From a virus (lineage: Duplodnaviria > Heunggongvirae > Uroviricota > Caudoviricetes), in the IMG/VR virus record IMGVR_UViG_2718218399_000013: a stretch of DNA of 24,737 nt, one strand, 5' to 3'. A program made the translations under genes and the position numbers. Positions 1 through 16,153 of the stretch are shown piece after piece. The first letter of the stretch is position 1; the number at the start of each line of letters is the position of its first letter. The notes below the pieces were generated by a model. That model was not told where the DNA came from. It saw only the letters and a list, made by a program, of their open reading frames with translations, and made no database searches.

Positions 1-116
1 ATGTCTGCACCTGCATTGCCTGATGTCAGAACAGTATTTTGATTAATTGCCAGGGTTACAATGGCACAAATGCGGCACAGGAGGAAACGTGGTGTATTTA
101 AATATGGGGTAACTAC

Positions 117-142
117 TTGATTTAAATGGTGCGATAATAGGA
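117..142. repeat. att-like direct repeat: degenerate copy of the thrW 3' end (127-142, one base missing) plus the 10-nt flank ttgatttaaa that also abuts intact thrW; putative distal boundary of the P4-like element
   Basis: Plus strand 117-142 ttgatttaaatggtgcgataatagga versus 23284-23310 ttgatttaaatggtgccgataatagga; similarity ends at 143. Confidence 0.5.
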
Positions 143-675
143 ACCAATAATCGCCACCAACACAATGATTTTAATACATAAATTAAAATAGAAGATTTAA
201 ACTACACACACCCCTATACACATTGGTGAAGGCGTTCGCTTTCCGCGCATTCTCAAGGCAGAAAAAACTTTTTTTGGGGGAAAACTGTTCATACTACTCA
301 TTGTGTTTTTTTTCATTAATATTCAAAAAGATATGAAATTAACGATTGATAAGAAGTGAACACTTTACTGTTCACCTTGACTGATTAATAAGTGCATAAA
401 AACCTAATTTTTGAGCACGGAAGGTATTTGTTCCTTACCCCATTTTTTCTCTTTAGTCCAGTACAACAAAAAATGCGCCCAACAGAAAACTGTTTTGAAT
501 TTAAATGCAATCGCTTTGTAGTGATTGTAACGTAAGTTGATTTGATGGGTGCGATTTTGTTTAGCGATAATGGTATGTTGTAAAAATCATTTCGTTGCAA
601 TAAAATTGCATCGCTACATTTTATAGACAATATCAATTAAATTTTAATACTCATTATTAATTTTGAGGCTAACAA

Positions 676-1632
676 GTGACTAGTTATTCAAACTTTTCCA
701 ATCAAATAAAAGAAACCATCAATAATAAATTCGATCATGAAATTCATGATTGGGACATTATAAAAAACTCAATCACAACTTTAATAAATAAAAATATCCA
801 TGGTGCAGGTAGAAATATCGTTGATTTTATAGATTTAGGTAACTGGGATTTTATTTCAAACTTTTCCTTTGATGACTCTACAAGAAGACTTGAATTAGAG
901 TGGCACCCCAATGATAAATTCCATATATATATTGAGTCCGTTGTGTTTGTCGAGTTTAATGACACTATATATGCTTTCTTAAAGGGATACTATCACAATC
1001 AGTTATCTCTAAATAGAATATATAATACAAAATGCTCTTCATGTTCATTTGAAAACTCAGGTTCTTATATGGTAGACGTTTATAGAACGGTTAAAAGAGT
1101 AAATGAGACAATCCAGACCCCAAATATAAATTGCTATACTACATGTATTTTAACAAGGCCCGCAAATGGTCATGTTACATCTACAGGCTTCTCACGAAAC
1201 CTCATGGATGCGATAAATATTTCATTAGCAGAGCACAAAATAGCCTCTTTACATAATGAAGTCATGAGTATTGAGGAATATGATCGTGATTCTTTACAAG
1301 AGAAAGGAAATACTGCCAGGAGATATTTAGAATATATTCTCATGCTTGTTAATATTCGTATAATGCATTTAAACAACGTTCAATACCAAGAGCAAATGCT
1401 AGGTAGTTTAGTTTCTGTTATTGAGGCTCTGGACTATGAACCATTAATGAAAAATGATGTTGAAATTACAAAGGACATCCTTAATGCTTGCAGCCACCAC
1501 GGGGGGGTTAGAATTGAAAAGAAAGATGTAATTTTTTCTTTGGAAGTTATTGAAAACTTAATTAAAGCCATAAAGAAAACCGACATAAATAAATTACAAC
1601 TCGATGGGATGTTTAAATCAATTCAAAAATAA
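676..1632 (+). CDS. hypothetical protein, 318 aa; AT-rich cargo gene between the distal att repeat and the alpha gene
   Basis: Long ORF with GTG start and a gagg RBS-like motif about 7 nt upstream; very AT-rich with Asn/Ile/Lys-rich product, contrasting with the GC-richer alpha gene; followed by a hairpin; no recognisable motif. Confidence 0.55.
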   Translation: MTSYSNFSNQIKETINNKFDHEIHDWDIIKNSITTLINKNIHGAGRNIVDFIDLGNWDFISNFSFDDSTRRLELEWHPNDKFHIYIESVVFVEFNDTIYAFLKGYYHNQLSLNRIYNTKCSSCSFENSGSYMVDVYRTVKRVNETIQTPNINCYTTCILTRPANGHVTSTGFSRNLMDAINISLAEHKIASLHNEVMSIEEYDRDSLQEKGNTARRYLEYILMLVNIRIMHLNNVQYQEQMLGSLVSVIEALDYEPLMKNDVEITKDILNACSHHGGVRIEKKDVIFSLEVIENLIKAIKKTDINKLQLDGMFKSIQK

Positions 1633-1736
1633 ACATCATCTAACAATGAATTAGATGCATTTTCCGCTGACGCCTTAGCATATAACTTTTAAATTTTATC
1701 GATATATATTTTGAGATAATTTCCTGTAGCGGATTT

Positions 1737-1757
1737 AAGACCGGCACAGCCGGTCTT
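1737..1757. terminator. putative bidirectional hairpin between convergent orf318 and alpha
   Basis: Perfect inverted repeat aagaccgg-cacag-ccggtctt in the 130-bp gap between two convergent genes; no strong U-tract. Confidence 0.35.
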
Positions 1758-1764
1758 AGGTCAG

Positions 1765-4098
1765 TTATTTCGCTGCAAACTCATCGCATTTTGGCAACCA
1801 GTCAGCATTGCTTTCCTCTCTTAGGGCCAGATTAGTCTGCATTCCTTGATTGGTCCGTCGTTTCTCATACTGCAGCCCATATTCCTTGAGCATTAACGGT
1901 AGCCCCTTGCCAAACATGGTCAGACTGAGCGTATTTTTATAGCCGTTAGCCTCCATGTAGACCAGATAGGCATGGTAGAGGTAAGTTCGAGGCTGACGTG
2001 GAACAATATTAGCGTTCCCCATAAACATGCCCGTGGTGTCAGGTAGGACCTCAAGGTAGCCGCAAAAATCAAAAGCTGAATCAGCATCACGTTTGATGGT
2101 GAGCGCTTCATCGGAGTTCTGCTGTGACTGAAGCAATGTCCTGGCACTCATTGGGTCGCTGAAACGCTGCATAAGCTGGCGAACAATCACCGCTAGCTCA
2201 CTGGCAATTTTCTCTTTGAGCTGGGTATCGCGTTCCTCCGGGGCTATCTGGTCGGGGAAATGCAGGATCACCCTTCGGCGTGAAACTCCACCACTACGAT
2301 CAGTGAAGCGCATCGGATTATTGTTCACAGCCAGGATGACCGCCGGGATGTGGGTTGAATAGGCGTTCTGATATTTGGGATCAACGGATACCGCATCGCC
2401 GCCAGTGATGGCTTTTAGTCCGGCCCCGTCACCGCTCCACTTTTCCTGGTCGGGAAGTCGAATCAGTGAAAAACCTATTAACGCAGCTCGTTCTCTTGGC
2501 GACTCAAGCATTTCAATGGTTGCCGAGGTCGCGTTATCTTCACCCGCCAGCATGGTTGCTATTTCAGCAAGAATACTCTTTCCACTTCCGCCAGGGCCAG
2601 TGACCTCCAGAAACAGCTGCCAGTCATAACGGTTAGCCAGCACCATAAACAATGCAGCCAGAATAATGTCCCGTTTTTCAGGATTAAAACCTGCGGCACG
2701 ATCCAGCCAGCGCCAGAATGCCGGGGCATGGGTTTCCAGTGACTCACCGTCAACGGGCTGCGTGTAATCCACCTCGCACAGCGTACGTAACCAGTGCTTC
2801 TTATCGTGCGGGCTGAACAATCCTGTCCGGGTATCGAGCACACCGTTGCGAAATCCGATAAGTTGCCGCGCCGGATTCTGCTGTTGCGGAACGATCAGTT
2901 TGAGGGTTTCCACGAGAGACGCAATTTTCGCGGATGAAAAAGGTGCGTCGAGGCGCTGAAACAGCGCAGCGACATCACGGGCAAAATCGGCGTAATAGAT
3001 AACTTTCCAGGCCCCCGCCTCATAGCGTGAAAGGAGCTGCCCGTTCGGGTCTACTGCCAGTGAATTTTTATAGTGATCCACTACCCTCTGCGCTTTTTCG
3101 CTGACGCTCAGCGCGGTAAATTCAGCTTCGCTCATTGTGTCGAAGGGGCTGGCAACAGCTGGTTTTATTACTTCATGAATTGCATGCCGGGTGGCTTCTT
3201 CGCCGTTTTGCGTGAATGCATCGTTCCAGTCACCAAACACAGGCGGGAGCGCCATTGTGCAATTGCAGGCCCCGGTAACAGCTGCGCCCCTTGTTTGCCC
3301 CGCACCGTTGAGATCGCGGTCAGCAGCAATAATTATCTGGTGCGTTGGGTACTCACTGCAGGCAATGCTCGCCAGGGAAAGGAAATTGACGGACGAAAAG
3401 GCCACCATGACAGCATCGCCAGTCAGATAGTTGATAGTAAGTGCGGTGGCATATCCTTCCGCTATCCAGAGCCGTTTGGCTGCTTTGGCAGTACCTTCAA
3501 CCAGGTAAAAGGCATTCTTAACCTGACCGCCTTTAAGGAAGCATTTGCCCCCATTAGCGTTGATTAACTGCAGATTTACCAGCTCTCCATCTGCATACAA
3601 TGGAACGACAAGATCTCCCGCGCGAAATGCCACACCACCGACTTTATGCATAGCGGTTAATTCCCGGCAAGGCAGTGCAGGAAACCCTTTACTCGTCAGA
3701 TAGGCATTGCCAGTGGTCTGGCGGGACTTATCAAACAAACGGGCAGCCAGCACTGCTGCAGCTTTTCTCCCGTCCTCTTTTTCAGGAGAACCAGATTCAA
3801 GCATTCCCTGAGATACTGGCAGCAGGTTTCCGATAATGCCGTTTATTCTGTCTGCCGCTTCACTAATGCCTACATCCAGTACTTTACTTACAAGCGCCAG
3901 GCCATCACCTGCCCCGCACTGGTTACAGAACCACGTTCCCCGCCCTTCCTGGTCATCAAATCGAAAGCGGTCTTTCCCGGCACAGACCGGGCAGGGCTGG
4001 TGCCGATTTTTCAGTACATTTACGCCCAGCGCAGGTAAAATTCTTGACCAGTGACCCCGAGCTGCTTTCTCAGCCTGGCTAACTTTCATTCCTGACAT
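1765..4098 (-). CDS. P4 alpha-type primase-helicase (zinc-binding primase, TOPRIM, D5-like helicase), 777 aa
   Basis: N-terminal CPVCAGKDRFRFDDQEGRGTWFCNQCG zinc motif, Walker A GPGGSGKS, 777 aa from the ATG at 4098 with RBS aaggagg 9 nt upstream (the ORF track's 4155 start adds a 19-aa extension without RBS); satellite-phage gene context. Confidence 0.85.
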   Translation of the reverse strand: MSGMKVSQAEKAARGHWSRILPALGVNVLKNRHQPCPVCAGKDRFRFDDQEGRGTWFCNQCGAGDGLALVSKVLDVGISEAADRINGIIGNLLPVSQGMLESGSPEKEDGRKAAAVLAARLFDKSRQTTGNAYLTSKGFPALPCRELTAMHKVGGVAFRAGDLVVPLYADGELVNLQLINANGGKCFLKGGQVKNAFYLVEGTAKAAKRLWIAEGYATALTINYLTGDAVMVAFSSVNFLSLASIACSEYPTHQIIIAADRDLNGAGQTRGAAVTGACNCTMALPPVFGDWNDAFTQNGEEATRHAIHEVIKPAVASPFDTMSEAEFTALSVSEKAQRVVDHYKNSLAVDPNGQLLSRYEAGAWKVIYYADFARDVAALFQRLDAPFSSAKIASLVETLKLIVPQQQNPARQLIGFRNGVLDTRTGLFSPHDKKHWLRTLCEVDYTQPVDGESLETHAPAFWRWLDRAAGFNPEKRDIILAALFMVLANRYDWQLFLEVTGPGGSGKSILAEIATMLAGEDNATSATIEMLESPRERAALIGFSLIRLPDQEKWSGDGAGLKAITGGDAVSVDPKYQNAYSTHIPAVILAVNNNPMRFTDRSGGVSRRRVILHFPDQIAPEERDTQLKEKIASELAVIVRQLMQRFSDPMSARTLLQSQQNSDEALTIKRDADSAFDFCGYLEVLPDTTGMFMGNANIVPRQPRTYLYHAYLVYMEANGYKNTLSLTMFGKGLPLMLKEYGLQYEKRRTNQGMQTNLALREESNADWLPKCDEFAAK

Positions 4099-4111: not shown

Positions 4112-4435
4112 TTAGTGCAGCGCTGGTTTGTTGAGGTGACGGGAACAAAGTTCATCCATGACCGTCATTCCGAGCAGTGAGAGAACCGGACAGGCTTTAA
4201 GCGGCCCCGACTCCATCAGATCCGAAAGCAACGCGCAGGCAATTTCCAGCCCTCTTTGCTGCCCATGCTGGCGCAGATAGAACCCTTCCAGCTCGCGGGC
4301 TATGGCATCTTCAAGTTCAGCGAGCGTCAGGCCGGAATAACGTTCCTGATGATTGCTTAGAGCCAGCCAGGCACAGGCAACGGCACGGCGATACAGAGCG
4401 GCACGAAGTGCCAGAAGAGATTCACAGCATATCAT
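4112..4435 (-). CDS. small protein (107 aa) immediately upstream of alpha; position of P4 left-operon accessory genes (Cnr-like position)
   Basis: ORF translationally coupled to neighbours (1-nt overlap with the upstream ORF, 13-nt gap to alpha containing the alpha RBS); GC-rich like the P4-like core; function not recognisable. Confidence 0.5.
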
Positions 4436-4656
4436 CAGGCCACCTCCGCATTCATCAGGTCGTCATGGCAGCGTTGCACCACTCCATCCAGTTGCTCTGT
4501 CATCAGATAAATGAGGGAAACCAGTTGTTCGCATTGGGCACCTGCTGGCTTTTCATAACAGTCCTGCAGGGCTGCCATGCCAGTTACATACTCACCCACA
4601 TTGCGTAAATGTTTCAGCCTTACAACATCGTCGTAGGAAATCTCAAACTGGTTCAT
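4435..4656 (-). CDS. small protein (73 aa), P4-like left operon
   Basis: ORF with 4-nt start/stop overlap to the upstream ORF and 1-nt overlap to the downstream ORF; acidic small protein. Confidence 0.45.
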
Positions 4657-4847
4657 AGCGTCACCTCCCCGGCAGGCAGCCGTGCAGAAAGGGAGAGTAC
4701 ATAATCTCGGACTAGCAAACGGCGCGCGGAACGCTCATCGCAGGAGACAGTGCGAAGCATACAGATGCGGGGGTGAGTGTCAGCACGGCGGATTGCGGCA
4801 AACACAAAGACATATTGCGGGTGTGACGGGGTGAGGATTGTAGCCAT
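4653..4847 (-). CDS. small protein (64 aa); only the 3' part of the 185-aa track ORF is likely coding
   Basis: ATG at 4847 preceded by GGAGG (4856-4860, 8-nt spacing); the upstream 120 codons of the track ORF translate to low-complexity sequence over a GC-rich repeat region. Confidence 0.4.
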
Positions 4848-5206
4848 GATGGCAGCCTCCAATAAGTAGCGGTTATTGCTACCACCGGAAACGCCAATTT
4901 CACTGGTGGCAGCCCGAACGGGGTTGGCGTAACCGGCCTTATTGGAAACCGGCCAGCCCGAAGGCTGCCCCGCCCGGACTACCATTATCTCGATAGAACC
5001 ATGGTGTAAGCATAAACACCACAGCCCTGAAAATGGTTGTGCCTGAGCTACGACGTAAAAAAAGACGCAAGGGGCGTCAATTGTCGCCAATAAGTTATAC
5101 GGAACGCCAATTCCGGCTGCCGATTTTGCGACAGCGGAAAAACTATACCTGGAAATGACGACAGTAAGCAAGCCAGAATAAAGGTATTTAATGTATGCAG
5201 GTATCA
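4848..5206 (-). ncRNA. candidate structured non-coding leader or immunity-RNA region of the P4-like left operon
   Basis: About 360 nt without a convincing ORF between the AlpA/Vis-like gene and the first small ORF; GC-rich direct repeats cagcccgaa (4910-4918, 4954-4962) and aaccggcc (4931-4938, 4947-4954) plus local hairpins (cagcc-cgaa-ggctg); P4 places its RNA-based immunity determinant at this position. Confidence 0.25.
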
Positions 5207-5467
5207 TCATGCATCACATCCCCGCCCACGGGCGCTGATGCGGTCCGCCATCCATGCGCTGACCTCAGACTGTGCCCAGGCGACATTTTTACCGCCAAGC
5301 GGGATCTGCTTCGGAAACGCATCGCGGCTGATCAGGTCGTAAACGGTCGAACGGGACAACCCGCATAAGTGCATCACCTCAGGCAGGCGTAAAAATCGCT
5401 CATGATGGTTCGATACAGGAAATAATGGCGCAGCAGGAGCTGGCGCAGACACAGAAATATTACGCAT
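5207..5467 (-). CDS. AlpA/Vis-family small DNA-binding regulator (excisionase-like HTH), 86 aa
   Basis: Motif [48 protein letters not shown] typical of the AlpA/Vis family; RBS gaggg upstream of the ATG at 5467; first gene of the leftward operon. Confidence 0.7.
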
Positions 5468-6312
5468 TTATCTACCCTCTTTAATTTCCACAACAGTCCG
5501 GATGAATTTATCCGGGTTCAGGTAGTTCCTTATTATGTGTATATAAACCACCTGCGCACGCATTTTTTATTTAGCGTCACATATTGATTTTATGGAATTT
5601 AAAGCCCGATTAAACCATATAAAATGACATAATAAATACCATGCCTGCGGACTATAAATACAGGAGCATTAATAGGAACTACCATTCACCCAGGGTTTAC
5701 TATCCTATGGGTCATTGCACCTGATAGTGCTAACCCCACCGCCAATACAGCAAGGCAGTACAACTTCTACACGAGGCCTTGCATTGCAGGCCCCAATTTC
5801 CGGGCATATTTTTGAATCGCATCCAACTTATAAACATTGGGCCTGCATAAAAACCTTGATATTAAATAACATCACCTTAAATCGTAAAATATATCCGAAT
5901 GAATCCATAAAGAACCGGACAGATCTAGTTTTATAAAAATCAGTATGAAATGCAACACCATGGCCAGAGGCGAAAATGTTATTCCCCGGCAAAAACATGC
6001 AGTCTATTTATGTGCCTGTTGAATACTCCTGAATAAGGGTGAATAGTGGTGAGGAGCAAAAAACAAATAGCTACGAGGAATAAAAAAACCACCCATTATG
6101 AAAAAATACCATAAATAATTTTATTCCCATGTGAACAGTTATGAACAGTCGATGAATACTGCCATGCCAACCCTTCACCTTATAACCTTCTGTATTACCT
6201 ATTTTTTTTACCTAAGTGAATAGTAGTGAATAGTTAAGGTAAGTCTGAAACAGCCTTAGTTAAACGAGGCCTTTTCTGGCTAGCCAAAAGAGGTCCGGGG
6301 CGGTTCAGTCTT

Positions 6313-6330
6313 TGTCTTGTCGCTCGCACA
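6313..6330 (+). promoter_or_regulatory. TGT-N12-ACA dyad, putative Ogr/Delta-type activator site of the late promoter upstream of the sid-like gene
   Basis: TGTcttgtcgctcgcACA lies about 70-90 bp upstream of the ATG at 6401, matching the P2/P4 late-promoter activator consensus recalled from the literature. Confidence 0.4.
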
Positions 6331-6400
6331 ATGGCGTTCAATGGCAGCTTTGTATGCATCACAGCACAATTGACACCACGACAAACCACTAGGTGCTGAC

Positions 6401-7153
6401 ATGACAATCCCAGAACAGAACAATAACCCGATCGTTGAAATTTCTATCCCTGTTTCGACGCAACAGGCGCTTGAGAAAGTGAATGCCACCAAATCTGCAT
6501 GGCTTGAAGCACGTCGTCAGCAAAAAGCGGCAGCGGATAATATTGCGACAATCCGCCAGCGCCGCGCTGAAATGGAAGCCACGACGAACGCCCTGAATGA
6601 GGAGTGGCGCACGCTATTTCGTGAAAGTCAGGGCGTAGTCTCAAAGGAAATGAAAAAACTGCGCACGGAAATTGCGCTGGGACGAGAAACGCTTGAGGAT
6701 TTTGATGAGCTGCTGGCGGCTCAGGAAAGCGAAAATGCACTTTTGCCGCAGGAGGCTGCGGAATTAGCCGGAAAGTATATCCACGCGCACGACACCCTTG
6801 TGGGTATTCGCGCAAAACAAATCTGGGAAGATTTTATGCAGTCGCATGGAAAAGCACTAATCCAGACACTAAGCCTGCTCAAATCAACAATGGGCAGGGA
6901 AGCCAGCGCAGTTGTCGGTGTGGTGCATTCAGTTAATGACCCGGACACACTGCTGAAAGATTTTATTCATAAACATATCACCAGACCGGCTCTGACTAAC
7001 GATGCGATGCCCGAACAGGACCCCGTGTTTAAACTGGCGGGAGTTGCCCCGGATTATGCGGCCCGTCTGGATTTCAGTAATAAACTCTCTCCAGCAGCTA
7101 TGCATAAAATGAAGGTTCGTCAGGAACGTGCTGAGAAGGAGAAAGCAGTATGA
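6401..7153 (+). CDS. first gene of the satellite late operon, 250 aa; Sid-like (capsid size determination) by position and size
   Basis: ORF with ATG start downstream of the TGT-N12-ACA dyad; charged, helix-rich composition; stop overlaps the next gene start (ATGA); assignment positional only. Confidence 0.55.
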   Translation: MTIPEQNNNPIVEISIPVSTQQALEKVNATKSAWLEARRQQKAAADNIATIRQRRAEMEATTNALNEEWRTLFRESQGVVSKEMKKLRTEIALGRETLEDFDELLAAQESENALLPQEAAELAGKYIHAHDTLVGIRAKQIWEDFMQSHGKALIQTLSLLKSTMGREASAVVGVVHSVNDPDTLLKDFIHKHITRPALTNDAMPEQDPVFKLAGVAPDYAARLDFSNKLSPAAMHKMKVRQERAEKEKAV

Positions 7154-7701
7154 TGGCCCGAGTCACTCCAGACCAAGCGCTTATCAGTTTTAGAAATGCC
7201 CGTATTCTGTGGGCTGGACATAGTGAGAGCCGAAAAGCCGTTGAACAACAGATAGAATCACTCCTCACTGCCATGGAAAAACCAGCAGATTATGCTCGAC
7301 AGCTCGAATTACAGCGGGAACATCTGGATGTGCTGAAATGGCAAATTAACTGTGCTGCGCGCGAATGCATTTACTCGCAGCATCAACTGATGGAGGCCTG
7401 CACAGAAGACGCTCTCAGCAATTTTATGCAGGCGAATGGAGCAGCCCTGACATCTGCACTGGCTCCGTTCCTGAAGGGGCGCGGAGGGGTTGACGTTGCG
7501 TCCCGTATATTACGCAATGCTCTGGTTCGCCAGCTGGCAATAACACCGCCTGAAATTGCCGGGGATTATCGTATGATTCTGGATGAATCCGGTGTGATGC
7601 CTGACCCCATGATGGTTCGTGATTGCCAGAGCTCTTACACCCCTGCACAACAACTGCGCTTTCAGCAACGTCTGGATTACATTAACGGCATGCAGGAGTA
7701 A
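7150..7701 (+). CDS. Psu-like protein, 183 aa
   Basis: Translationally coupled to the upstream gene; size and segments such as KWQINCAARECIYSQHQ and FMQANGAALTSALAPFLKG resemble my recollection of P4 Psu; not verified by alignment. Confidence 0.5.
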   Translation: MMARVTPDQALISFRNARILWAGHSESRKAVEQQIESLLTAMEKPADYARQLELQREHLDVLKWQINCAARECIYSQHQLMEACTEDALSNFMQANGAALTSALAPFLKGRGGVDVASRILRNALVRQLAITPPEIAGDYRMILDESGVMPDPMMVRDCQSSYTPAQQLRFQQRLDYINGMQE

Positions 7702-7706
7702 TATTA

Positions 7707-7979
7707 ATGGCACTTAAATGTCCCGAATGCGGTACGACGGCACACGCCAGAACCTCCGCCTATGAAGCACCATCGGTTAAACGCTCATGGTATCAGTGCC
7801 AGAATCTTGAATGTTCCTACACATTTACCGCACTGGAAAGTGTGGATACGATAATCATGAAGCCCCGGCGCAATGAACAGGAATCAGAGAAAGCACAAAT
7901 GCCGGAAAAACAACAGCAAACTCTCAATCGCTATGGCTCCGCGTCAAAGCTGTCAAGCCGTCAGCAAATTCCTGTCTGA
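7707..7979 (+). CDS. Ogr/Delta-family zinc-finger late transcriptional activator, 90 aa
   Basis: N-terminal CPECGTTAHARTS ... YQCQNLECSYTF matches the Ogr/Delta C-x2-C ... C-x4-C zinc finger; RBS aggag upstream of the ATG. Confidence 0.8.
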   Translation: MALKCPECGTTAHARTSAYEAPSVKRSWYQCQNLECSYTFTALESVDTIIMKPRRNEQESEKAQMPEKQQQTLNRYGSASKLSSRQQIPV

Positions 7980-7999
7980 TTAGCAAAAAAAGCCCACGT

Positions 8000-8026
8000 A
8001 ATCCCGGTCCAGTACTGGGATTTTTT
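8000..8026 (+). terminator. rho-independent terminator after the late operon
   Basis: aatccc-ggtccagtact-gggatt hairpin followed by TTTTTT directly after the delta stop codon. Confidence 0.5.
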
Positions 8027-8175
8027 ACGCCTTTTCCCTGGCTGGCCTGAGAGCGCATGAGTGCATGTCTATAGCGCATGAAAACGCATGATTCTCATGC
8101 ACCATTTTTGACGCGAAAGCCCTTGTGTGGTGGCTTCTGAGACGATTTGCGGAATGCATGAAAACCAGTCTGTTA

Positions 8176-8388: not shown

Positions 8389-8955
8389 TTAAACAGGATA
8401 AAAACCAGAGCTTCCATTCTTATTTAAGTTATGGATTTTATTTGCATCATTAATTTTTATTTGGAACGTCGGACCTTTATTCTCAAGAATTACAATCTGG
8501 AAATTATAGTCCCTTTTGATTAATGCGTGATAAAATGAATCACTGAGACTGACGCTATTAACATCCGATAGAGAACCCCCTCTATCTTTATCAAAGTGCG
8601 TCACTAATGGACTATCAAGCACAACAAATCCAATGAATGGATTCCCTTTTCTTGATAAAAATTCCGCAAAGCAAATGGTAAATATAGCATGCATTACTGC
8701 ACGGGTACCTTTACCAAACATTCCTCGGCGTTTCCCATTGATATTAAAGTCATATGTATCTTCGTCAAATCGCACTTTGTTATCTTTAGAATTTTCAAAA
8801 TTTATATCATTCAAAAAGTCTTGCATCGCTATTTCTATATCATACAAATCAGCTACTGTTAAGGAGTCAAAGTCCTCGGCGGAGTATTTAAGTTCGTCAA
8901 CATCATCTTCTTTATCTTGTAATGAAGATAGAATGCTATGTTTTGTGTGATCCAT
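8389..8955 (-). CDS. C-terminal ABC-ATPase head fragment (Walker B / D-loop region), 188 aa; third piece of an SMC/Rad50-like ATPase
   Basis: FGKGTRAVMHAIF (degenerate signature-like) about 20 aa before GFVVLDSPL (Walker-B-like); start ATG overlaps the upstream stop as TAATG; AT-rich. Confidence 0.5.
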   Translation of the reverse strand: MDHTKHSILSSLQDKEDDVDELKYSAEDFDSLTVADLYDIEIAMQDFLNDINFENSKDNKVRFDEDTYDFNINGKRRGMFGKGTRAVMHAIFTICFAEFLSRKGNPFIGFVVLDSPLVTHFDKDRGGSLSDVNSVSLSDSFYHALIKRDYNFQIVILENKGPTFQIKINDANKIHNLNKNGSSGFYPV

Positions 8956-9545
8956 TAAAAGATTGTCTTTATATTCATAAAGTGATTCAAGAGATGAATG
9001 TATTGTTTTATATTTTTATCTTCTAACGTCTTAAAATCACTTTTTTCTGATTGATAAATTTCATTAACATCATTTTTTCTTAACATAATTAATTCATGTT
9101 CGCGAACATTAGATCCGATTGATTCAATTAATCCTTTCAGCTGGCTTTTGATTTTCAATTTTTCTGCATTACACGACAAAAAACAATCATCATATGATAT
9201 TTCATTTTCTTTTTTTTGCGGTGTATTACAGAACTCACAATAAATATCTGCAAAATTATTTAAATAGAAATTCGCCTGTGATACAACATCTATTCTTTGT
9301 AGATCTATAAAGTATTGGTCTTTAAGAAGACTAAATCTTTCAATGAGTAATGATAAGTATTTTTCCCTGTCACTGATTGAATATAATTCATCACTTAACT
9401 CTTTTAATAATTGCTTCTTATCATCAAGTGCATCAACAATACCTTTCAATATATCTTTCGATGATTCAATATCTTGCTCTACTTTCTCAAGTTCTCTTGA
9501 AACAATGACTTGATCATATTCAGGATAAATTAATTGCGCTTTCAA
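8955..9545 (-). CDS. coiled-coil middle segment of an SMC/Rad50-like ATPase with a possible zinc-hook motif, 196 aa; no ATG start, in frame with the upstream ORF across a single TAA
   Basis: Heptad-rich charged sequence; Cys cluster YCEFCNTPQKK...DCFLSCN; track start is TTG, first internal Met is near the C-terminus; upstream ORF is in the same frame, separated only by TAA at 9576-9578. Confidence 0.45.
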   Translation of the reverse strand: MKAQLIYPEYDQVIVSRELEKVEQDIESSKDILKGIVDALDDKKQLLKELSDELYSISDREKYLSLLIERFSLLKDQYFIDLQRIDVVSQANFYLNNFADIYCEFCNTPQKKENEISYDDCFLSCNAEKLKIKSQLKGLIESIGSNVREHELIMLRKNDVNEIYQSEKSDFKTLEDKNIKQYIHLLNHFMNIKTIF

Positions 9546-9575
9546 TTCCTCATAAATATTTGCAATTTGATTTTT

Positions 9576-10208
9576 TTAAAAATATCTTGCTTTTTTATTT
9601 GGTTTTTCTGCTAAGGAGTTAGTATCATCTCTCTGAGTTAAAAGGAATTTAAATTCAGACTTTCTTTTTGTCTCCTCGCTAGGAATATCAGAAAGAATTA
9701 ACGACTTCTCAGTTAACACTCTTAATTCATCAATACAAAAAAATTCAAAAACATTATTAAGATTAAATTTATGAAGAGTATTACTTAAGTTTGTTCTTAC
9801 TTTAGCCTCTTTGAAATTCAACCTACCATAAAAGTATGATGAAAAACTCTTTTTAGACGAAGCACTTTTGGAAAAAACCATCAACAGATTAGCTTCACTA
9901 ACATTTTCAATGCTCGAATCATATAATCTGTAATGGGCGCTATCCTGAAGAGACCTCTCAATTGTCATTACCCTACCTTGAAAATTAAATTCCAGATAGG
10001 CTAAATCATAACCTTGAGCATGATCGATATCTTTATTTTTTAGTTTTTCACTCCCTAATAAATATCGAATCAAATAATATATGTATGTTTTTCCAGAGTC
10101 AGAACCACCATATAAAATAGTCAATTTAGAACCAAATTCAATTATAGCATCTAATTTATTGAATCCGGTTACCTTTATTTTTCTGAACGTAAAAAAATTG
10201 TCATTCAT
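9576..10208 (-). CDS. N-terminal ABC-ATPase head (Walker A) of an SMC/RecF/Rad50-like protein, about 210 aa before an in-frame TAA
   Basis: FTFRKIKVTGFNKLDAIIEFGSKLTILYGGSDSGKTYIYYLI is a typical ABC/SMC N-terminal P-loop; candidate ATG starts at 10208 or 10226 (the track uses TTG at 10235); ends at TAA 9576-9578 with the next ORF in frame. Confidence 0.6.
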   Translation of the reverse strand: MNDNFFTFRKIKVTGFNKLDAIIEFGSKLTILYGGSDSGKTYIYYLIRYLLGSEKLKNKDIDHAQGYDLAYLEFNFQGRVMTIERSLQDSAHYRLYDSSIENVSEANLLMVFSKSASSKKSFSSYFYGRLNFKEAKVRTNLSNTLHKFNLNNVFEFFCIDELRVLTEKSLILSDIPSEETKRKSEFKFLLTQRDDTNSLAEKPNKKARYF

Positions 10209-10659
10209 AATTAAATTCCATATCATATTTGCCAATTTTATTTTTTATAATTGATTGCAACTGCTCATCAGGAATATCACTATATAACTTAACCACCAAA
10301 TTTATATTATGCTCCATCTGCGCAACATATTCATTATGTAGAGAATTTGTAAATGCATATGTTTTTTCAGAAGCTTTATATACAAAACCACGATGTGTAT
10401 AAATTTTTGAGGCTAGTTCATAGCCTTGCAACAAAGCCAATGATTCTAAAACAATCTCTCGTTTTAGGGCTAACTGAGCATCTCTACGGGGTATTGGAGG
10501 ATGAAGACTAATCTCTTCAGGTAAAAAATCCTTAAGATTTACTAAAATAAAATCAAAACAAATAAGCCGTTCAAGGCTTAATGAAGAAGGATAAATAGCG
10601 ACGAGCACTTTCGCCATTCGACATGCCACTTCTAAACTTGAATTATAAATTCTAACCAT
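10201..10659 (-). CDS. hypothetical small protein, 152 aa from the ATG at 10659; candidate small subunit of the cargo system
   Basis: ATG overlaps the upstream stop (TAATG); its stop lies 5 nt after the downstream ATG at 10208; AT-rich; no recognisable motif. Confidence 0.5.
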   Translation of the reverse strand: MVRIYNSSLEVACRMAKVLVAIYPSSLSLERLICFDFILVNLKDFLPEEISLHPPIPRRDAQLALKREIVLESLALLQGYELASKIYTHRGFVYKASEKTYAFTNSLHNEYVAQMEHNINLVVKLYSDIPDEQLQSIIKNKIGKYDMEFNYE

Positions 10660-11276
10660 TATCTCACCGTCCAAATTACTTCACCATCATTAACCAAATG
10701 ATGGCATATTCCTTTTTTATCATTTGCTTCACATATTTTTGATAGTACTGAATGTGCAATTGGTGTCAGAACAGCCTGCTTCAAGACTGCATTACACCTA
10801 ATAAATGCATAATTATGGTCTTCATAAAAGACGGGTTCAATTGAAGATGAAATGTAACATTTCAATGCTTTGAATACATCATCTTTAAATACTTCGCGGA
10901 CAAAAACCTCAAGCGAAGATGCAAAATAAAAATCATTTCTACTATTATTAAAGTGTCGTCTGTATGGATCATCAAGCTCTAAGAAAGAACTATAAGTTTT
11001 ATTTCCATGCTCTGAATAGGCTTGAAGCAGTGCATTAACATATACAGACTCTTTTTTTGAATTGTATGTTGGAATTTCATTTGGAGGGATTCTCACGACA
11101 TACAGCTCGTTAAAGTACTTAAAATAAAGGTGTGTATTTGCAATATCATTTAAAATCAATGATAAGGGTAGAGAGTAAAAAATACTAAAATCAAAATCCT
11201 CAATATATTTTTTTATTTCATCATCTAATGGAATATCAATCTTTTTAGTTATTTTTTTGAAATTGCTGAATCCCAT
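10659..11276 (-). CDS. hypothetical protein, 205 aa; possibly the C-terminal domain of the upstream Mrr-like nuclease ORF
   Basis: ATG lies 28 nt inside the upstream ORF with no clear RBS; one extra A in the A7 run at the junction would fuse the two ORFs in frame. Confidence 0.45.
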   Translation of the reverse strand: MGFSNFKKITKKIDIPLDDEIKKYIEDFDFSIFYSLPLSLILNDIANTHLYFKYFNELYVVRIPPNEIPTYNSKKESVYVNALLQAYSEHGNKTYSSFLELDDPYRRHFNNSRNDFYFASSLEVFVREVFKDDVFKALKCYISSSIEPVFYEDHNYAFIRCNAVLKQAVLTPIAHSVLSKICEANDKKGICHHLVNDGEVIWTVR

Positions 11277-11665
11277 GAATCAAGGACTGCTTTTTTAAGC
11301 TCGTTTTTATTTTTCAATAAATTAGAAAATGTAGTAGATAAATCATAGGGTGCCACAAAAAAGTACTTCTGAGGGATGGGATAATCACCATTCAGAGTAA
11401 AATAGATAAGTTTTCCAAACTCAACTACAACATCAGAGAACCCTAAACTTTTTTTGTACAGTTTGCATTGATAATTATCCCAAGAATAACCTTCTACGTT
11501 AGGATCCGATTTATATCCAACAACGTCTCTACCTTTATCTCCAGCTCCTCCCAAACGTTCGCTCCACGGGTAATCATCTGATTTACAGACAATAAGCCAA
11601 TCATGGACAAATACCTCCCATTGTTCATCATCCCATGTCAATATTTCCGAAAGTGGTTGAGACAC
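11249..11665 (-). CDS. Mrr-like PD-(D/E)xK restriction-endonuclease-fold protein, 138 aa; first gene of the cargo operon
   Basis: GGAGDKGRDVVGY ... YQCKLYKK matches the Mrr catalytic-domain pattern (G-x-G-D-x-G-x-D ... Q-x-K); GTG start with aaggag RBS embedded in the 3' end of int (int stop 3 nt upstream). Confidence 0.6.
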   Translation of the reverse strand: MSQPLSEILTWDDEQWEVFVHDWLIVCKSDDYPWSERLGGAGDKGRDVVGYKSDPNVEGYSWDNYQCKLYKKSLGFSDVVVEFGKLIYFTLNGDYPIPQKYFFVAPYDLSTTFSNLLKNKNELKKAVLDSWDSAISKK

Positions 11666-11668
11666 AAA

Positions 11669-12850
11669 TTAACTCCTTTTTAGTCTTTCAAATATCAAAT
11701 TACTGTACCAGTCCATCATAGACTTCCTTCCACTAAAATATTGAGCATGGTTATAAGTCCCCCTAATAGAATTTTTATCTACATGAGCCAACTGGATTTC
11801 AATCCAAGCACTCTCAAAACCTTGCTCATGCAGGATTGTAGAAAGGGTATGACGAAAACCATGTCCAGTGACTTTTCCTCCATACCCAATACGCTTAATG
11901 GCTTGATTTATACTCGCTTCGCTCATTGGCCTATTCGGATCGTTCCGCCCTGGAAAAACATAACGATAGTTCCCTGTCATGATCTTGAGTTCATTGAGTA
12001 AATCTACCGCTTGAGATGATAAGGGCACAAGATGTGGCCTACGCATTTTCATCCTTTCAGCAGGAATTTCCCAAATAGCGTTATCCAGATCAAATTCTTG
12101 CCATAATGCCGCGCGTAATTCGATGGTTCTCACACCCGTAATCATCAGTAATTTCGTGGCTATCTGGACAAGCTTACTCCCGGAGTAACCCTCTAAGGCA
12201 CGTAGAAAATCAGGTATCTCATCAGCTTTTAGGAATGGGAAATGATTGGATTGGTGTACTTCGAGAGCGCTGGAGAGATCAGCCGCAGGATTGTACTCCG
12301 CCCTACCCGTTGCAATTGCGTAGCGAAACACTTCGGAGCAACGCTGCCGCACTTTGCGCATTTTCTCCAACGCACCACGTTTCTCAATTTTACGCAGAAC
12401 GTTCAGCAGCTCTAGCGGTTTAATCTCTCCCACAGGCCTTGTTCCGACATAAGGAAAAATGTCGTTCTTAAACGCTTCCATGATGTCTGATGCATATCCC
12501 GCCGACCATTTAGCAGATTTAAGTTGATGCCACTCTCTGGCTATCTTTTCGAAGGCGTTCTCTGACTCTGTTTGCATAGCTAGCTTTTGCTCTTTTCGAA
12601 CCTCACTAGGGTTCTTTCCTTCTGCCACAAGTTTTCGAGCTTCATCACGACGGGAACGAGCATCGGCAAGGGTGATCGTTGGGTAAACACCAAGCGAGAT
12701 CATTTTGGGTTTGCCGGCATAGCGATAGCGGAACCGCCAACTCTTGCTTCCATTAGGTTCTATAAGTAATGACAACCCTAGCCCATCTCCAAATGTATAG
12801 GCTTTAGCTTCAGGCTTAGCGCGGCGAATCTGCATATCGTTTAAAGGCAT
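11669..12850 (-). CDS. P4-family tyrosine integrase, 393 aa
   Basis: N-terminus MPLNDMQIRRAKPEAKAYTFGDGLGLSLLIEPNGSKSWRFRY typical of P4/CP4-type integrases; C-terminal GHGFRHT ... Y catalytic region; adjacent to a partial thrW copy; the track's 12901 start adds 17 Cys-rich residues. Confidence 0.85.
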   Translation of the reverse strand: MPLNDMQIRRAKPEAKAYTFGDGLGLSLLIEPNGSKSWRFRYRYAGKPKMISLGVYPTITLADARSRRDEARKLVAEGKNPSEVRKEQKLAMQTESENAFEKIAREWHQLKSAKWSAGYASDIMEAFKNDIFPYVGTRPVGEIKPLELLNVLRKIEKRGALEKMRKVRQRCSEVFRYAIATGRAEYNPAADLSSALEVHQSNHFPFLKADEIPDFLRALEGYSGSKLVQIATKLLMITGVRTIELRAALWQEFDLDNAIWEIPAERMKMRRPHLVPLSSQAVDLLNELKIMTGNYRYVFPGRNDPNRPMSEASINQAIKRIGYGGKVTGHGFRHTLSTILHEQGFESAWIEIQLAHVDKNSIRGTYNHAQYFSGRKSMMDWYSNLIFERLKRS

Positions 12851-13012
12851 GTGTATAGGAATCCAGACCGAACAGGAACATATACACAATCCTATACACA
12901 TTCAGTACCGGATTCTACTGGATGGTTACGGACTACTATGGACTTAAAAGAATAAAAAATGTTATAAATCAGAGATTTTATGGACTAATACGGACGTTTG
13001 AGGAAGTTGAGA

Positions 13013-13058
13013 TGGTGCCGATAATAGGAGTCGAACCTACGACCTTCGCATTACGAAT
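13013..13058 (-). repeat. direct repeat: 46-nt copy of the thrW 3' end (att core) between the two elements
   Basis: 13013-13058 is identical to 23294-23339 (tggtgccgataataggagtcgaacctacgaccttcgcattacgaat); the 5' half of the tRNA is absent. Confidence 0.85.
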
Positions 13059-13405
13059 TATAAGAATCCGCTTCTAATTCAAAGCATTACCCCATCAACA
13101 CTGCGCTCACACGTCCCACCACATCAAAACATGTAAAGCCTTGCAAGCCATTGCGAGGCCTTATGTGTCTCAGTTTTGTCCCACCTTGTATTACGACTTG
13201 CATAGCCAATGAAGATAAACGTGACGACAAACGGCGCAGCAGTCTTCTTTTCTTTCACGACTTCTCCAGCATGCATACCTTTCTGCCATGACTGAAGTGA
13301 ATGCCTGTTATGAGCAAGGATTGGCCCAGATGAATCGCCCTGGACTGTTGCGATCGTGAAGCCATAGACTGGGCCGCAAGCACGGGAGGTTACGATAAAG
13401 CGACA

Positions 13406-13771
13406 GTGCAGGATGTCATGTTAGGAGCGATAGAAAAACGCTTTGGCGATAAAGTACCGGAACAGTCCATCCAGTGGCTGACAGATAACGGTTCAGCGTA
13501 TAGAGCGCATGAAACACGGCAGTTCGCCAGAGAGTTGAATCTGGAGCCCTGCACAACGGCAATCAGCAGTCCTCAGAGTAATGGAATTGCAGAAAGGTTC
13601 GTGAAAACGATGAAGGAAGACTACATCGCGTTCATGCCGAAACCGAATGTAAGAACGGCATTGCATAATCTTGCAGTGGCGATCGAACATTACAATGAAA
13701 ACCATCCGCACAGTGCGTTGGGTTATCGCTCTCCGCGAGAATATCGACGTCAGCGGGTAACGTTAACTTAA
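13406..13771 (+). pseudogene. IS3-family (IS2-like) transposase, C-terminal DDE-domain fragment
   Basis: [25 protein letters not shown] ... [19 protein letters not shown] ... [15 protein letters not shown] resembles the IS2 orfB C-terminus; no intact upstream reading frame; IR-like sequence gataccccccctgtctggaaataagggggcaa follows at about 13775-13806. Confidence 0.7.
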
Positions 13772-13812
13772 GATACCCCCCCTGTCTGGAAATAAGGGGG
13801 CAAGAACAATGA

Positions 13813-14556
13813 TCAGATTCCCTGGTGAGTAAGAATTTTACTTTCTGAACTCCTCTGAGAGTATTGACTTGGAGAAACACCAAAATAACGTCTAAATACA
13901 TAAGTAAAGTATGAGACACTGGCATAACCACAGACCTTAGCTACTTTACTAATAGGATAACAACGAGTGCTGAGTAAATATTCAGCCATTTGCATCCTCT
14001 CATCAAGTATGATCTTACTGAATGATACCCCCTCTTCTTTCAATTTCCTCTTTAGTAAACTTTCGCTGAGATATAATCTTGATGATATATCCTTAAGACG
14101 CCATGGTGCAGATAAATCCGTATGAATAATCGTTTTAACTTTAGCCCCTGTGCTTTTCAAACATCCAAACAGAAATACTCCAAATTGTTTTTCAGAAGAA
14201 AATGCAGAGAGACATGTAAAAGCAATAGACTCATCAAAAATTTCTATGTATTCAGCACAGTGATTAGCCCAACTAATTAATCCTTTAATTAAACTGAAGT
14301 CAGCAAAGTTTATTTTTAAATAAGATGGATATTCCCTACAATCAGAAATATCCCTTAAGTTATTAGCTTTCAAATAGCGACTAATAAACTCAGCGCCAAA
14401 ATCCGCCACTATCACTCTTTCAGGATATGTCAGGAAAAAATCTCTAGAGCTAGAGTCGACAAGTACAGATGAACCTCTCTCCAGAAACACACTCTCTTTT
14501 CCGAAATAAACATCAAAGGACTCCAAAATCAATATAACTGAACATGTAGTTGCCAT
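13813..14556 (-). CDS. AraC-family transcriptional regulator (AppY/GadX-like), 247 aa
   Basis: C-terminal double HTH WRLKDISSRLYLSESLLKRKLKEEGVSFSKIILDERMQMAEYLL ... GYASVSYFTYVFRRYFGVSPSQY; AT-rich; long AT-rich upstream region. Confidence 0.8.
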   Translation of the reverse strand: MATTCSVILILESFDVYFGKESVFLERGSSVLVDSSSRDFFLTYPERVIVADFGAEFISRYLKANNLRDISDCREYPSYLKINFADFSLIKGLISWANHCAEYIEIFDESIAFTCLSAFSSEKQFGVFLFGCLKSTGAKVKTIIHTDLSAPWRLKDISSRLYLSESLLKRKLKEEGVSFSKIILDERMQMAEYLLSTRCYPISKVAKVCGYASVSYFTYVFRRYFGVSPSQYSQRSSESKILTHQGI

Positions 14557-15138
14557 ATCATCCCCCCAATTTAACTGAAACCAGGATGAAGTATATGTAT
14601 ATAAAGTTCACTTTGCCAAACTTCAGTATAAAAAACCACTAAAAATAGGGTGTGATAAAAAATACCGTAACAATAAAGCAAAGGATTATAAATTCCGTTA
14701 CAGTTACAAATGATACTCAAGAAACAATTCCTTAGGAAAAACTTATTTACAGCCAATAAGTAAGACACTTATATGATATCAAGTTTTCATAAAACATAAC
14801 TAGGCTAAATAGCTGCGCCTAATACCGCTACACTTTTGCCAGCCCATGTTTGCCTCCGGGTATTGACCCCTTCTCTACGCAACTTCAGTTCCCACCACCA
14901 ACTTTGCGGCAGCTTTGTAGGATCAATGTCTAAAAGAATAATGGTGACCGATAAGAAAACGACTGAATAACTGCAGATTTTCGCTCAAAACCTTCCTGTC
15001 AGATCCATAGCGAATCAAGTGCTGAATGTCACAGTATCGAACAGAAAACAGTGACGATCTAACCCTTCAAGAATATTCTACGATTGTTCTGTTTAGGAAA
15101 AGCAAGACGGGAAGTCGGGAGATAAGTCATTGATAAAG

Positions 15139-15283: not shown

Positions 15284-16153
<870 letters not shown>

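What the first reader, a model, noticed from the sequence alone, without database searches (positions are those of the whole stretch)
676..1632. Second AT-rich cargo ORF (318 aa) at the alpha-proximal end of the satellite
A single, strongly AT-rich gene of unknown function sits between the distal att repeat and the alpha gene, convergent with alpha and separated from it by a hairpin. Its composition contrasts with the GC-richer core, suggesting independently acquired cargo, possibly a single-gene defence or exclusion factor. Several Cys residues occur (CSSCS, NINCYTTC) but no confident motif.
Basis: inference. Interest (0 to 1): 0.5.

Follow-up and report, generated by a model that had tools for sequence, protein, structure and literature searches.

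The report
Orphan HEPN-nuclease cargo gene in satellite
The AT-rich gene beside the primase of this E. coli O157:H7 P4-like phage satellite is real, independently acquired cargo that encodes an unannotated two-domain protein with a PrrC/DUF4145-type HEPN (RNA-cutting) domain, so it is most likely a single-gene abortive-infection defence, though nobody has tested this.

Summary
ORF 676-1632 (+), 318 aa, has a GTG start that aligns with the ATG of its homologues. Its GC is 31%, against 52% for alpha. It is convergent with alpha, with a strong hairpin between them, and it lies inside the thrW att repeats. The window is the thrW island of E. coli O157:H7/O55:H7.

The protein matches nothing in Pfam, PADLOC, PHROGs or NCBIfam. 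It belongs to a rare family of 152 clusters among 1.84 billion representative proteins. AlphaFold models are confident (pLDDT 88.6 and 94.3).

- **N-terminal domain (1-168):** no sequence relatives outside the family, and only weak resemblance to nucleotidyltransferase folds.

Homologues are always solitary and sit in varied mobile or variable contexts. The primase-to-att interval is a published minor P4 defence hotspot.

Best reading: a latent HEPN RNase held in check by its N-terminal domain. Function is inferred, not shown. This is a new variant of a known kind, of moderate interest.

The parts
676..1632 (+). Cargo gene, 318 aa (WP_000205213.1), GTG start, stop included
   Evidence: start confirmed by alignment with homologues
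676..1179 (+). N-terminal alpha/beta domain (aa 1-168). Near-invariant G45, D50 (823-825), D58 (847-849), W76; D53 (832-834) in most. No sequence family.
1180..1629 (+). C-terminal HEPN domain (aa 169-318). Codons: R215 1318-1320, E219 1330-1332, N270 1483-1485, S273 1492-1494, H274 1495-1497; Asp267 at the PrrC Arg349-equivalent position.
665..668 (+). Shine-Dalgarno GAGG, 7 nt before the GTG
   Evidence: Sequence; conserved in homologous loci
578..651 (+). Two overlapping sigma-70-like promoter matches (578-606, 624-651) upstream of the gene. Weak evidence only.
   Evidence: the number of hits is not above the shuffled expectation
1637..1657 (+). Small AT-rich hairpin followed by UUUU, directly after the stop codon. 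Possibly the gene's own weak terminator.
1732..1762 (.). Strong 14-bp hairpin abutting the alpha stop codon. Likely a bidirectional terminator between the convergent genes.
117..142 (.). Distal att copy: 10 nt of native thrW-downstream flank plus 16-17 nt of the tRNA-Thr 3' end (26/27 match)
   Evidence: window 1-142 is conserved next to thrW in most E. coli
538..575 (.). Second, decayed att-like copy (about 21/26 match, with a 10-nt insertion). Either the satellite's original end or a relic of an earlier integration.
   Evidence: and reading of the sequence; inference
13012..13058 (.). Integrase-proximal att: exact 47-bp copy of the thrW 3' end
1765..4098 (-). Alpha primase-helicase of the P4-like satellite (context; convergent neighbour)

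Best explanation
The gene encodes a self-contained, single-protein abortive-infection (or anti-mobile-element) RNase. The P4-like satellite carries it as swappable cargo in its minor primase-to-att hotspot. The C-terminal domain is a DUF4145/PrrC-type HEPN domain. By analogy with PrrC, Arg215 would stabilise the transition state, Glu219 would act as general base and His274 as general acid, with Asn270 assisting. The expected reaction is metal-independent cleavage of RNA, most plausibly tRNA anticodon loops, leaving 2',3'-cyclic phosphate ends. The N-terminal alpha/beta domain, with its acidic D50/D53/D58 loop, takes the place of PrrC's ABC-ATPase domain and its restriction-enzyme partner. It would keep the nuclease latent and release it, probably through a change in oligomer state, when it senses an invader-derived protein or ligand. 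Shown here: the gene, its cargo status, the HEPN fold, the conserved residue set, its solitary occurrence and its mobile contexts. Inferred: RNase activity, the substrate, the trigger, the regulatory role of the N-terminal domain and the defence phenotype.
For: - **Pfam hits:** the family consensus hits AAA_13 at profile positions 602-693 of 713, the nuclease end of PrrC/RloC (E 2.3e-6), and DUF4145 at 23.6 bits against a cut-off of 23.1. The only Pfam families hit by more than one natural member that carry an informative annotation are AAA_13 (4 of 44) and DUF4145 (2 of 44).
- **Conserved residues:** R215 in 112/112, E219 in 111/112, H274 in 111/111, N270 in 107, S273 in 105.
- **Match to PrrC:** PrrC's essential nuclease residues are R320, N321, E324, R349, N352 and H356 (PMC1484252; PMC3025547). 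The R-x3-E and N-x3-H spacings are identical here. The HEPN-typical E-x3-K motif is present across the family (E219...K223, 98/113), though residue 223 is Met in the window protein and its close clade.
- **Profile alignment:** hhalign puts L269-N270...H274 on the R-N-x-x-E-H motif of DUF4145-type Ishtar HEPNs, and N212/R215-R216 on their N-x-K-R motif.
- **Solitary and mobile:** no conserved neighbour in the P4 satellite, the ICE, the thrW island, chromosomal spots or next to an MmeI-like R-M gene.
- **Known hotspot:** the primase-att interval holds 7% of P4 defence systems (PMC13586616). A sister satellite carries an HNH nuclease and a restriction-enzyme fragment there.
- **Architecture and precedents:** a novel N-terminal domain fused to a C-terminal HEPN domain is the standard Abi architecture (PMC3710099). 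Solo HEPN defence proteins are known: HepS, BxaP and Ishtar.
- **Retention:** the gene is kept at 99% identity or more in 306 O157:H7/O55:H7 genomes.
Against: - **No experiment** exists for any member of the family.
- **The canonical Rx4-6H arginine is missing.** Position 269 is Leu/Ala. The PrrC Arg349-equivalent position 267 is Arg/Lys in only 31 of 111 members and is Asp in this protein. In PrrC, Arg349 is strictly essential.
- **Sequence links to DUF4145 and AAA_13 rest on an artificial consensus sequence.** Individual natural members score weakly (best 0.0011), and the window protein itself hits neither family.
- **hhalign probability is only 2.3%**.
- **No PADLOC hit**.
- **HEPN domains fused behind nucleotidyltransferase-like domains are often non-catalytic** (PMC3710099), and the N-terminal domain weakly resembles such folds.
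Confidence: 0.55

Rival explanations
1. It is a fused nucleotidyltransferase-plus-HEPN enzyme of the KNTase/LinB/HalB/MNT-HEPN type. The N-terminal domain would be a divergent Pol-beta-fold transferase that uses the D50/D53/D58 carboxylates. The HEPN domain would be a substrate-binding or self-regulated module. The protein would nucleotidylate a small molecule or protein, or make a nucleotide signal, rather than cut RNA.
Confidence: 0.13
2. It is a toxin-like addiction or competition factor, or an anti-plasmid factor like Ishtar. It would stabilise the island or exclude rival mobile elements rather than defend against lytic phage.
For: HEPN toxins are common in toxin-antitoxin modules. Ishtar HEPN proteins act against RP4 conjugation and are reported in P4 satellites. 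One close homologue sits in a conjugative element next to ArdC and a methyltransferase.
Against: No antitoxin-like partner gene is conserved next to any homologue. Several copies lie in chromosomal spots with no mobile-element genes. The sequence motifs are absent from the Ishtar homologue table. The domain order is reversed relative to Ishtar, and the non-HEPN domains are unrelated.
Confidence: 0.15
3. It is a non-catalytic RNA- or nucleotide-binding protein: a regulatory or satellite-helper interaction factor whose HEPN domain has lost nuclease activity.
For: The canonical motif arginine is missing, and Asp267 stands where PrrC needs Arg349. Non-catalytic HEPN domains exist, such as MtlR and sacsin.
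Against: HEPN domains regarded as inactive lack conserved polar residues. Here R215, E219 and H274 are essentially invariant over sequences that are only 15-25% identical overall. The gene is not tied to satellites, so a role in P4-helper biology is unlikely.
Confidence: 0.12

Closest known systems
PrrC / RloC anticodon nucleases (Pfam AAA_13; HEPN superfamily)
   Same: The C-terminal nuclease-type HEPN domain has the same residue pattern: R-x3-E on one helix and N-x3-H later. Four of PrrC's experimentally essential residues are kept (R320, E324, N352 and H356 correspond to R215, E219, N270 and H274). The consensus sequence hits the C-terminal end of the AAA_13 profile. Both are accessory defence-type cargo.
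   Different: There is no ABC-ATPase N-terminal domain and no linked type I R-M system. The unrelated 168-aa alpha/beta N-terminal domain takes their place. The Arg349 equivalent is not conserved and is Asp here. There are 55 residues between the Glu and the His, against 32 in PrrC. No PrrC sequence was aligned directly, so the correspondence rests on published residue numbers and motif spacing.
DUF4145-like HEPN proteins (PF13643), including BxaP, the Ishtar anti-plasmid proteins and the 'c2405' family (H conserved, R lost)
   Same: The consensus reaches the DUF4145 gathering score. The upstream N-x-[KR]-R helix motif and the N...H motif align in register. These are single-polypeptide defence proteins that combine a HEPN domain with an uncharacterised second domain, and some are found in P4 satellites.
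   Different: The R of R-N-x-x-E-H is Leu/Ala here. The domain order is opposite to Ishtar and BxaP, which have the HEPN domain at the N-terminus. The partner domain is unrelated to Ishtar's. The window protein itself does not hit PF13643, and there is no AbiTii domain as in c2405.
HepS (solo HEPN anticodon nuclease of the Gifsy-1 prophage)
   Same: It is a single HEPN protein carried as accessory cargo of an integrated mobile element. It is made constitutively in an inactive oligomer and is activated by direct binding of a phage protein, after which it cleaves tRNA anticodons. This is the working model proposed here.
   Different: HepS is under 250 aa, has a canonical R100-x4-H105 motif and has no separate N-terminal domain. 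No sequence relationship was detected.
MNT-HEPN toxin-antitoxin pairs and KNTase-type NTase-HEPN fusions
   Same: They give the best structural matches of the C-terminal domain (7ae2, 8xdj, 5yep, 1wwp, 2hsb). The N-terminal domain has weak NTase-fold resemblance, in the same N-to-C order.
   Different: The NTase catalytic motif is absent, there is no sequence similarity, and the conserved HEPN residues differ.

Membership tests
HEPN superfamily | Four-helix up-and-down bundle of about 100-130 residues, with an insert between helices 2 and 3 | tested here: met
HEPN superfamily | Rx4-6H motif, with a polar residue after the R | tested here: not met
   The H (274) and the polar N (270, at -4) are near-invariant. 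The R position is Leu/Ala (269). Position 267, seven residues before the His like PrrC Arg349, is R/K in 31 of 111 members and Asp in this protein. The pattern is like the published 'H conserved, R lost' variants Parep1/8 and c2405.
HEPN superfamily | Upstream conserved acidic residue, typically within Ex3[KR] | tested here: met
   E219 is present in 111 of 112 members and K223 in 98 of 113. Residue 223 is Met in the window clade.
HEPN superfamily | Metal-independent endoribonuclease activity | not testable with these tools
   Requires biochemistry.
PrrC/RloC anticodon nucleases (AAA_13) | N-terminal ABC-type NTPase domain | tested here: not met
   No P-loop or ABC hit in the window protein. 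The N-terminal domain is an unrelated alpha/beta fold.
PrrC/RloC anticodon nucleases (AAA_13) | Nuclease-domain residue set Arg320, Glu324, Arg349, Asn352, His356 | tested here: inconclusive
   Four of the five are kept with identical local spacing. The Arg349 equivalent is absent. The match to the AAA_13 profile is significant only for the consensus sequence (E 2.3e-6); among natural members, 4 of 44 hit, with a best E of 0.0011.
PrrC/RloC anticodon nucleases (AAA_13) | Genetic linkage to a type Ic R-M system (PrrC) | tested here: not met
   There is no hsd gene next to it in the window. R-M genes are near only some homologues.
DUF4145 (PF13643) | Score at or above the Pfam gathering threshold | tested here: inconclusive
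   The window protein gives no hit at E up to 10. The family consensus scores 23.6 bits against a cut-off of 23.1. 2 of 44 natural members hit, with a best E of 0.023.
Pol-beta-type nucleotidyltransferase (N-terminal domain) | hG[GS]x9-13Dh[DE]h motif, a third carboxylate and the alpha-beta-alpha-beta core | tested here: not met
Cargo of the P4-like satellite's minor defence hotspot (primase-att) | Lies between alpha and the att site, inside the att-delimited element, with variable content among related satellites | tested here: met
   Att copies at 117-142 and 538-575 against the ORF at 676. Content differs in satellites with a 91%- or 82%-identical alpha. The hotspot is described in PMC13586616.
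Known anti-phage defence systems (PADLOC v2.0.0) | Match to any model | tested here: not met
   No hits for the protein, and none of note for the consensus sequences.

The most novel reading that the evidence does not exclude
This family is a previously undescribed single-gene immune system. A PrrC-type anticodon-nuclease HEPN domain has been uncoupled from both its ABC-ATPase regulator and its restriction-enzyme partner. It has been fused instead to a new sensor domain, possibly a degenerate MNT-like fold, and uses a rearranged active site in which Arg215 replaces the motif arginine. The family is fixed throughout the O55:H7/O157:H7 lineage in the little-studied second hotspot of P4-like satellites.
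Probability: 0.35. Interest if true: 0.6.

Novelty: new variant of a known kind. Interest (0 to 1): 0.45.

Why it matters
If it is active, this would add a named, testable single-gene system to the defence repertoire of a major pathogen lineage. It is present at 99% identity or more in 306 complete O157:H7/O55:H7 genomes. It would also give a concrete example for the primase-to-att hotspot of P4-like satellites, which so far is known only statistically. It would show that the PrrC/DUF4145-type nuclease module can be regulated by a domain other than an ABC ATPase or an R-M complex. And it offers a natural test of whether a HEPN site that lacks the motif arginine but has an invariant arginine on the neighbouring helix is catalytically competent. 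Practically, a tRNA-cleaving abortive-infection gene in O157 could affect phage-therapy and phage-typing outcomes. If the protein is inactive or non-defensive, the finding is simply one more orphan cargo gene.

Tried and rejected
- **Direct family scans.** Pfam, PADLOC, PHROGs and NCBIfam scans of the protein gave only noise. PADLOC and NCBIfam were also silent for the consensus sequences.
- **PDB sequence searches.** Profile searches with the full-length, N-terminal and C-terminal alignments gave nothing meaningful.
- **Search for PrrC-like proteins.** A word-indexed search of the large protein database with the C-terminal domain profile returned only fragments of the same family. No direct alignment to a PrrC sequence could therefore be made.
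- **Extra domains in longer members.** The C-terminal extensions (570-612 aa members) have no Pfam domain. Some N-terminal extensions carry DUF3775, which is uninformative.
- **Foldseek searches.** The search against viral structures found no match at E of 0.001 or below. AFDB50 was unavailable.
- **Phage and plasmid origin.** There was one weak hit in Psychrobacillus phage PVJ1. The single 'plasmid' hit is a misassembled O157 chromosome fragment carrying the same satellite.
- **Zinc-binding idea.** The Cys clusters are not conserved across the family, so this was rejected.
- **PD-(D/E)xK reading of the N-terminal domain.** There is no conserved (D/E)xK, so this was rejected.
- **Identity with Ishtar.** Rejected: the family's motifs are absent from the Ishtar homologue table, the domain order is opposite, and the second domains are unrelated.
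- **L031 as a divergent allele.** It is the same island at 99% identity with a 3.9-kb internal deletion.
- **Genome-wide locus scan.** The alignment-based scan gave only one extra locus, so no statistical neighbourhood enrichment could be computed.

Full report
**Where the window comes from.** The first 1800 bases are 100% identical to many E. coli O157:H7 chromosomes and to O55:H7. The window is the thrW island:
- proA at 24737-23484 and tRNA-Thr (thrW) at 23369-23294, both on the minus strand.
- A first composite element running down to an exact 47-bp copy of the thrW 3' end at 13012-13058.
- A P4-like satellite, whose genes are listed below.
- The target gene at 676-1632.
- Chromosomal flank at 1-142, conserved in 3673 of 5426 complete E. 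coli genomes.

The satellite genes, from the integrase end, are:
- integrase, 11669-12850 (minus strand);
- an AT-rich main hotspot, 8389-11665, with an ABC-three-component system;
- delta, psu and sid;
- an AlpA-type helix-turn-helix regulator, an Icd-like gene and a DUF5375 gene;
- alpha, 1765-4098 (minus strand).

A 26/27 copy of the tRNA end plus its native flank lies at 117-142, and a more decayed copy at about 538-575. The gene therefore lies inside the att-delimited satellite, at the alpha end.

**Check of the observation.** All elements hold.
- ORF 676-1632 (+) encodes 318 aa from a GTG start. RefSeq calls the same coordinates (WP_000205213.1, 'hypothetical protein').
- The GTG aligns with the ATG of homologous genes, behind a conserved GAGG.
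- GC is 0.313 (GC3 0.285), against 0.523 for alpha and 0.502 for the satellite core. This resembles the main hotspot at 0.309.
- The gene is convergent with alpha. A 14-bp GC-rich hairpin (1732-1762) abuts alpha's stop codon. A smaller hairpin with a U-run follows the gene's own stop. The 143-nt spacer folds far better than shuffled sequence (z = -4.4).
- The Cys strings are present, but they are features of the close clade only.

**It is independently acquired cargo.**
- DNA similarity to other carriers begins about 30 bp before the start codon and ends 4 bp after the stop.
- 375 E. coli genomes carry this alpha type. The gene accompanies only the O157/O55:H7 version, in 306 genomes at 99% identity or more.
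- A satellite with a 91%-identical alpha has an HNH endonuclease and a fragment of a phosphorothioate-dependent restriction enzyme in the same interval. Another has an IS1 there.
[quoted passage not shown] None of the systems tested in that paper corresponds to this gene.

**The family.**
- The protein hits nothing in Pfam, PADLOC, PHROGs or NCBIfam.
- A word-indexed search of 5.8 billion clusters found 36 relatives, all 'hypothetical'. They come from Citrobacter, Providencia, Pantoea, Pectobacterium, Proteus, Aeromonas, Enterobacter, Serratia, Salmonella and Klebsiella.
- An exhaustive profile search of 1.84 billion representatives found only 152 clusters. These include Marinobacter and Arcobacter, and most clusters have 1-7 members.
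- A pattern scan of 185,579 species-representative genomes confirmed one locus. IMG/VR gave six loci, four of them the O157 island itself.
- Phage genomes gave one weak hit. The one 'plasmid' hit is a misassembled O157 fragment.
- In sum, the family is rare, sporadic and accessory.

**Genomic contexts of homologues**.
- In a Citrobacter conjugative element, the gene sits between a DNA methyltransferase and ArdC, a few kb from a type I R-M locus.
- In other E. coli, a 45%-identical paralogue lies immediately after the integrase of a different thrW island, beside a three-gene Y4jQ cluster.
- One copy lies next to an MmeI-like R-M gene.
- One copy lies near a resolvase.
- In Proteus and Serratia, the gene sits alone in chromosomal variable spots with long non-coding flanks.
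- No neighbouring gene is conserved, so the protein acts alone.

**Structure.**
- An AlphaFold2 model built on 34 sequences is confident (pLDDT 88.6, pTM 0.84).
- The N-terminal domain was modelled separately (pLDDT 94.3). It has three helices and about ten strands.
- The NTase signature motif is absent, and no member hits an NTase Pfam model.

**Sequence signals in the HEPN domain.** Across 113 sequences that are mostly 15-25% identical to the query, the following are near-invariant:

| Residue | Conservation |
|---|---|
| R215 | 112/112 |
| E219 | 111/112 |
| H274 | 111/111 |
| N270 | 107 |
| S273 | 105 |
| N212 | 100 |
| G277 | 99 |
| K223 | 98 |

- No natural member reached a Pfam family convincingly. 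The majority-consensus sequence of the domain hit AAA_13 (the PrrC/RloC family) at profile positions 602-693 of 713, with E 2.3e-6. It also hit DUF4145 at 23.6 bits, just above the 23.1 cut-off.
- Among 44 natural C-terminal domains, AAA_13 (4 members) and DUF4145 (2 members) recurred. Single weak hits went to HEPN and EC042_2821.
- Mutagenesis of PrrC identified Arg320, Asn321, Glu324, Arg349, Asn352 and His356 as essential nuclease-domain residues (PMC1484252; PMC3025547).
- The family pattern R215-[RK]-x-x-E219 ... N270-x-x-S-H274 reproduces the R-x3-E and N-x3-H spacings of PrrC.
- A profile-profile alignment to DUF4145-type HEPN domains was statistically weak (E 0.02, probability 2.3%). 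The sequences came from the Ishtar supplementary table. The alignment nevertheless places L269-N270...H274 on their R-N-x-x-E-H motif, and N212/R215-R216 on their invariant N-x-K-R.
- The domain is therefore a DUF4145/PrrC-type HEPN in which the motif arginine is replaced. Position 269 is Leu/Ala. The PrrC Arg349-equivalent position 267 is Arg/Lys in 31 of 111 members and Asp here.
- The HEPN survey describes such 'H kept, R lost' families. It suggests that another conserved basic residue can substitute, and that inactive HEPN domains lack conserved polar residues altogether (PMC3710099). The invariance of R215, E219 and H274 argues for a functional site.

**Most likely mechanism.**
- The protein is a latent HEPN RNase, probably a tRNA anticodon nuclease.
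- Its N-terminal domain does the job that PrrC delegates to its ABC-ATPase domain and to the EcoprrI restriction enzyme. That job is to hold the nuclease inactive and to release it on sensing an invader.
- Solo HEPN defence proteins give direct precedent. HepS is an inactive tetramer that is opened by a phage tail-tip protein and then cleaves tRNAs. BxaP has DUF4145 plus a HEAT domain and acts as an abortive-infection protein against T4. Ishtar has a HEPN domain plus an uncharacterised beta/alpha domain, acts against plasmids, and is also reported in P4 satellites.
- This gene is not an Ishtar homologue. Its motifs are absent from the Ishtar table, the domain order is opposite, and the second domains are unrelated.
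- I put about 0.55 on 'HEPN-nuclease defence or abortive-infection protein'. Within that, perhaps half goes to anticodon cleavage specifically.

**Rival readings.**
- An NTase-plus-HEPN enzyme, or a fused MNT-HEPN module (0.13). It is supported only by weak fold similarity, and it fails the NTase motif test.
- An addiction, competition or anti-plasmid role (0.15).
- A non-catalytic binding protein (0.12). This is suggested by the missing arginine but argued against by the invariant residue set.

**Verdict.** The gene defines an unannotated, rare family with a recognisable nuclease module and a new partner domain, so it is a new variant of a known kind. Interest is moderate. Such candidates are numerous. 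This one is attractive because it is lineage-wide in O157:H7, sits in the under-studied second P4 hotspot, and has an unusual active-site arrangement that a few point mutants could test.

Noticed in passing
window 355-387: A 33-bp element containing the inverted repeat GTGAACA-N5-TGTTCAC is 88% identical to a sequence about 290 bp upstream of the 77%-identical homologue in other E. coli contigs (L015, L017). The DNA around it is not alignable. It could be an operator or a recombination site that travels with the gene.
   Followed up: partly
window 143-575: Two att-like copies (117-142 and about 538-575) bracket about 400 bp of AT-rich non-coding DNA. This suggests either a relic of a third tandem integration at thrW or a duplicated satellite end. 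The 83-aa ORF on the minus strand (385-636, TTG start) is probably spurious.
   Followed up: partly
window 8389-11665: The main psu/delta-to-integrase hotspot is equally AT-rich (GC 0.31). RefSeq annotates an ABC-three-component system there (two components), together with an AAA ATPase and three hypothetical proteins.
   Followed up: no
window 13059-23293: Between the intact thrW and its 47-bp copy lies a decayed composite element. It holds an IS fragment, an AraC-type regulator, a LEM-3-like GIY-YIG protein, the pinE invertase with tail-fibre pseudogenes, and replication-protein pseudogenes. Some O157 strains have an IS1203 inserted after the GIY-YIG gene.
   Followed up: no
L009-L011 and L030 (other E. 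coli, e.g. SMS-3-5): A 45%-identical paralogue of the gene also sits at thrW, directly after a different integrase. It is followed on the opposite strand by a three-gene cluster (387 aa, a 149-aa response-regulator-like protein and a 1091-aa Y4jQ-family protein) that looks like an uncharacterised defence system.
   Followed up: partly
L031 (IMG/VR contig): This is a variant of the same satellite at 99% identity. It has an internal deletion corresponding to window 4228-8144, which removes the start of alpha through delta. The cargo-gene region is retained, though probably with a frameshift.
   Followed up: partly
L021 (strain 1368KP) locus 2079-3382: In a satellite with a 91%-identical alpha, the alpha-to-att interval holds an HNH endonuclease, a fragment of a phosphorothioated-DNA-binding restriction endonuclease, and small hypothetical genes. 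This illustrates turnover at this minor hotspot.
   Followed up: partly
L002 (Citrobacter ICE) locus 11767-16957: A 539-aa AAA_15/AAA_21 ATPase and a 260-aa protein are embedded next to the hsdS and hsdM genes of a type I R-M locus, 3.6 kb from the 80%-identical homologue. This may be an R-M-embedded defence pair.
   Followed up: no
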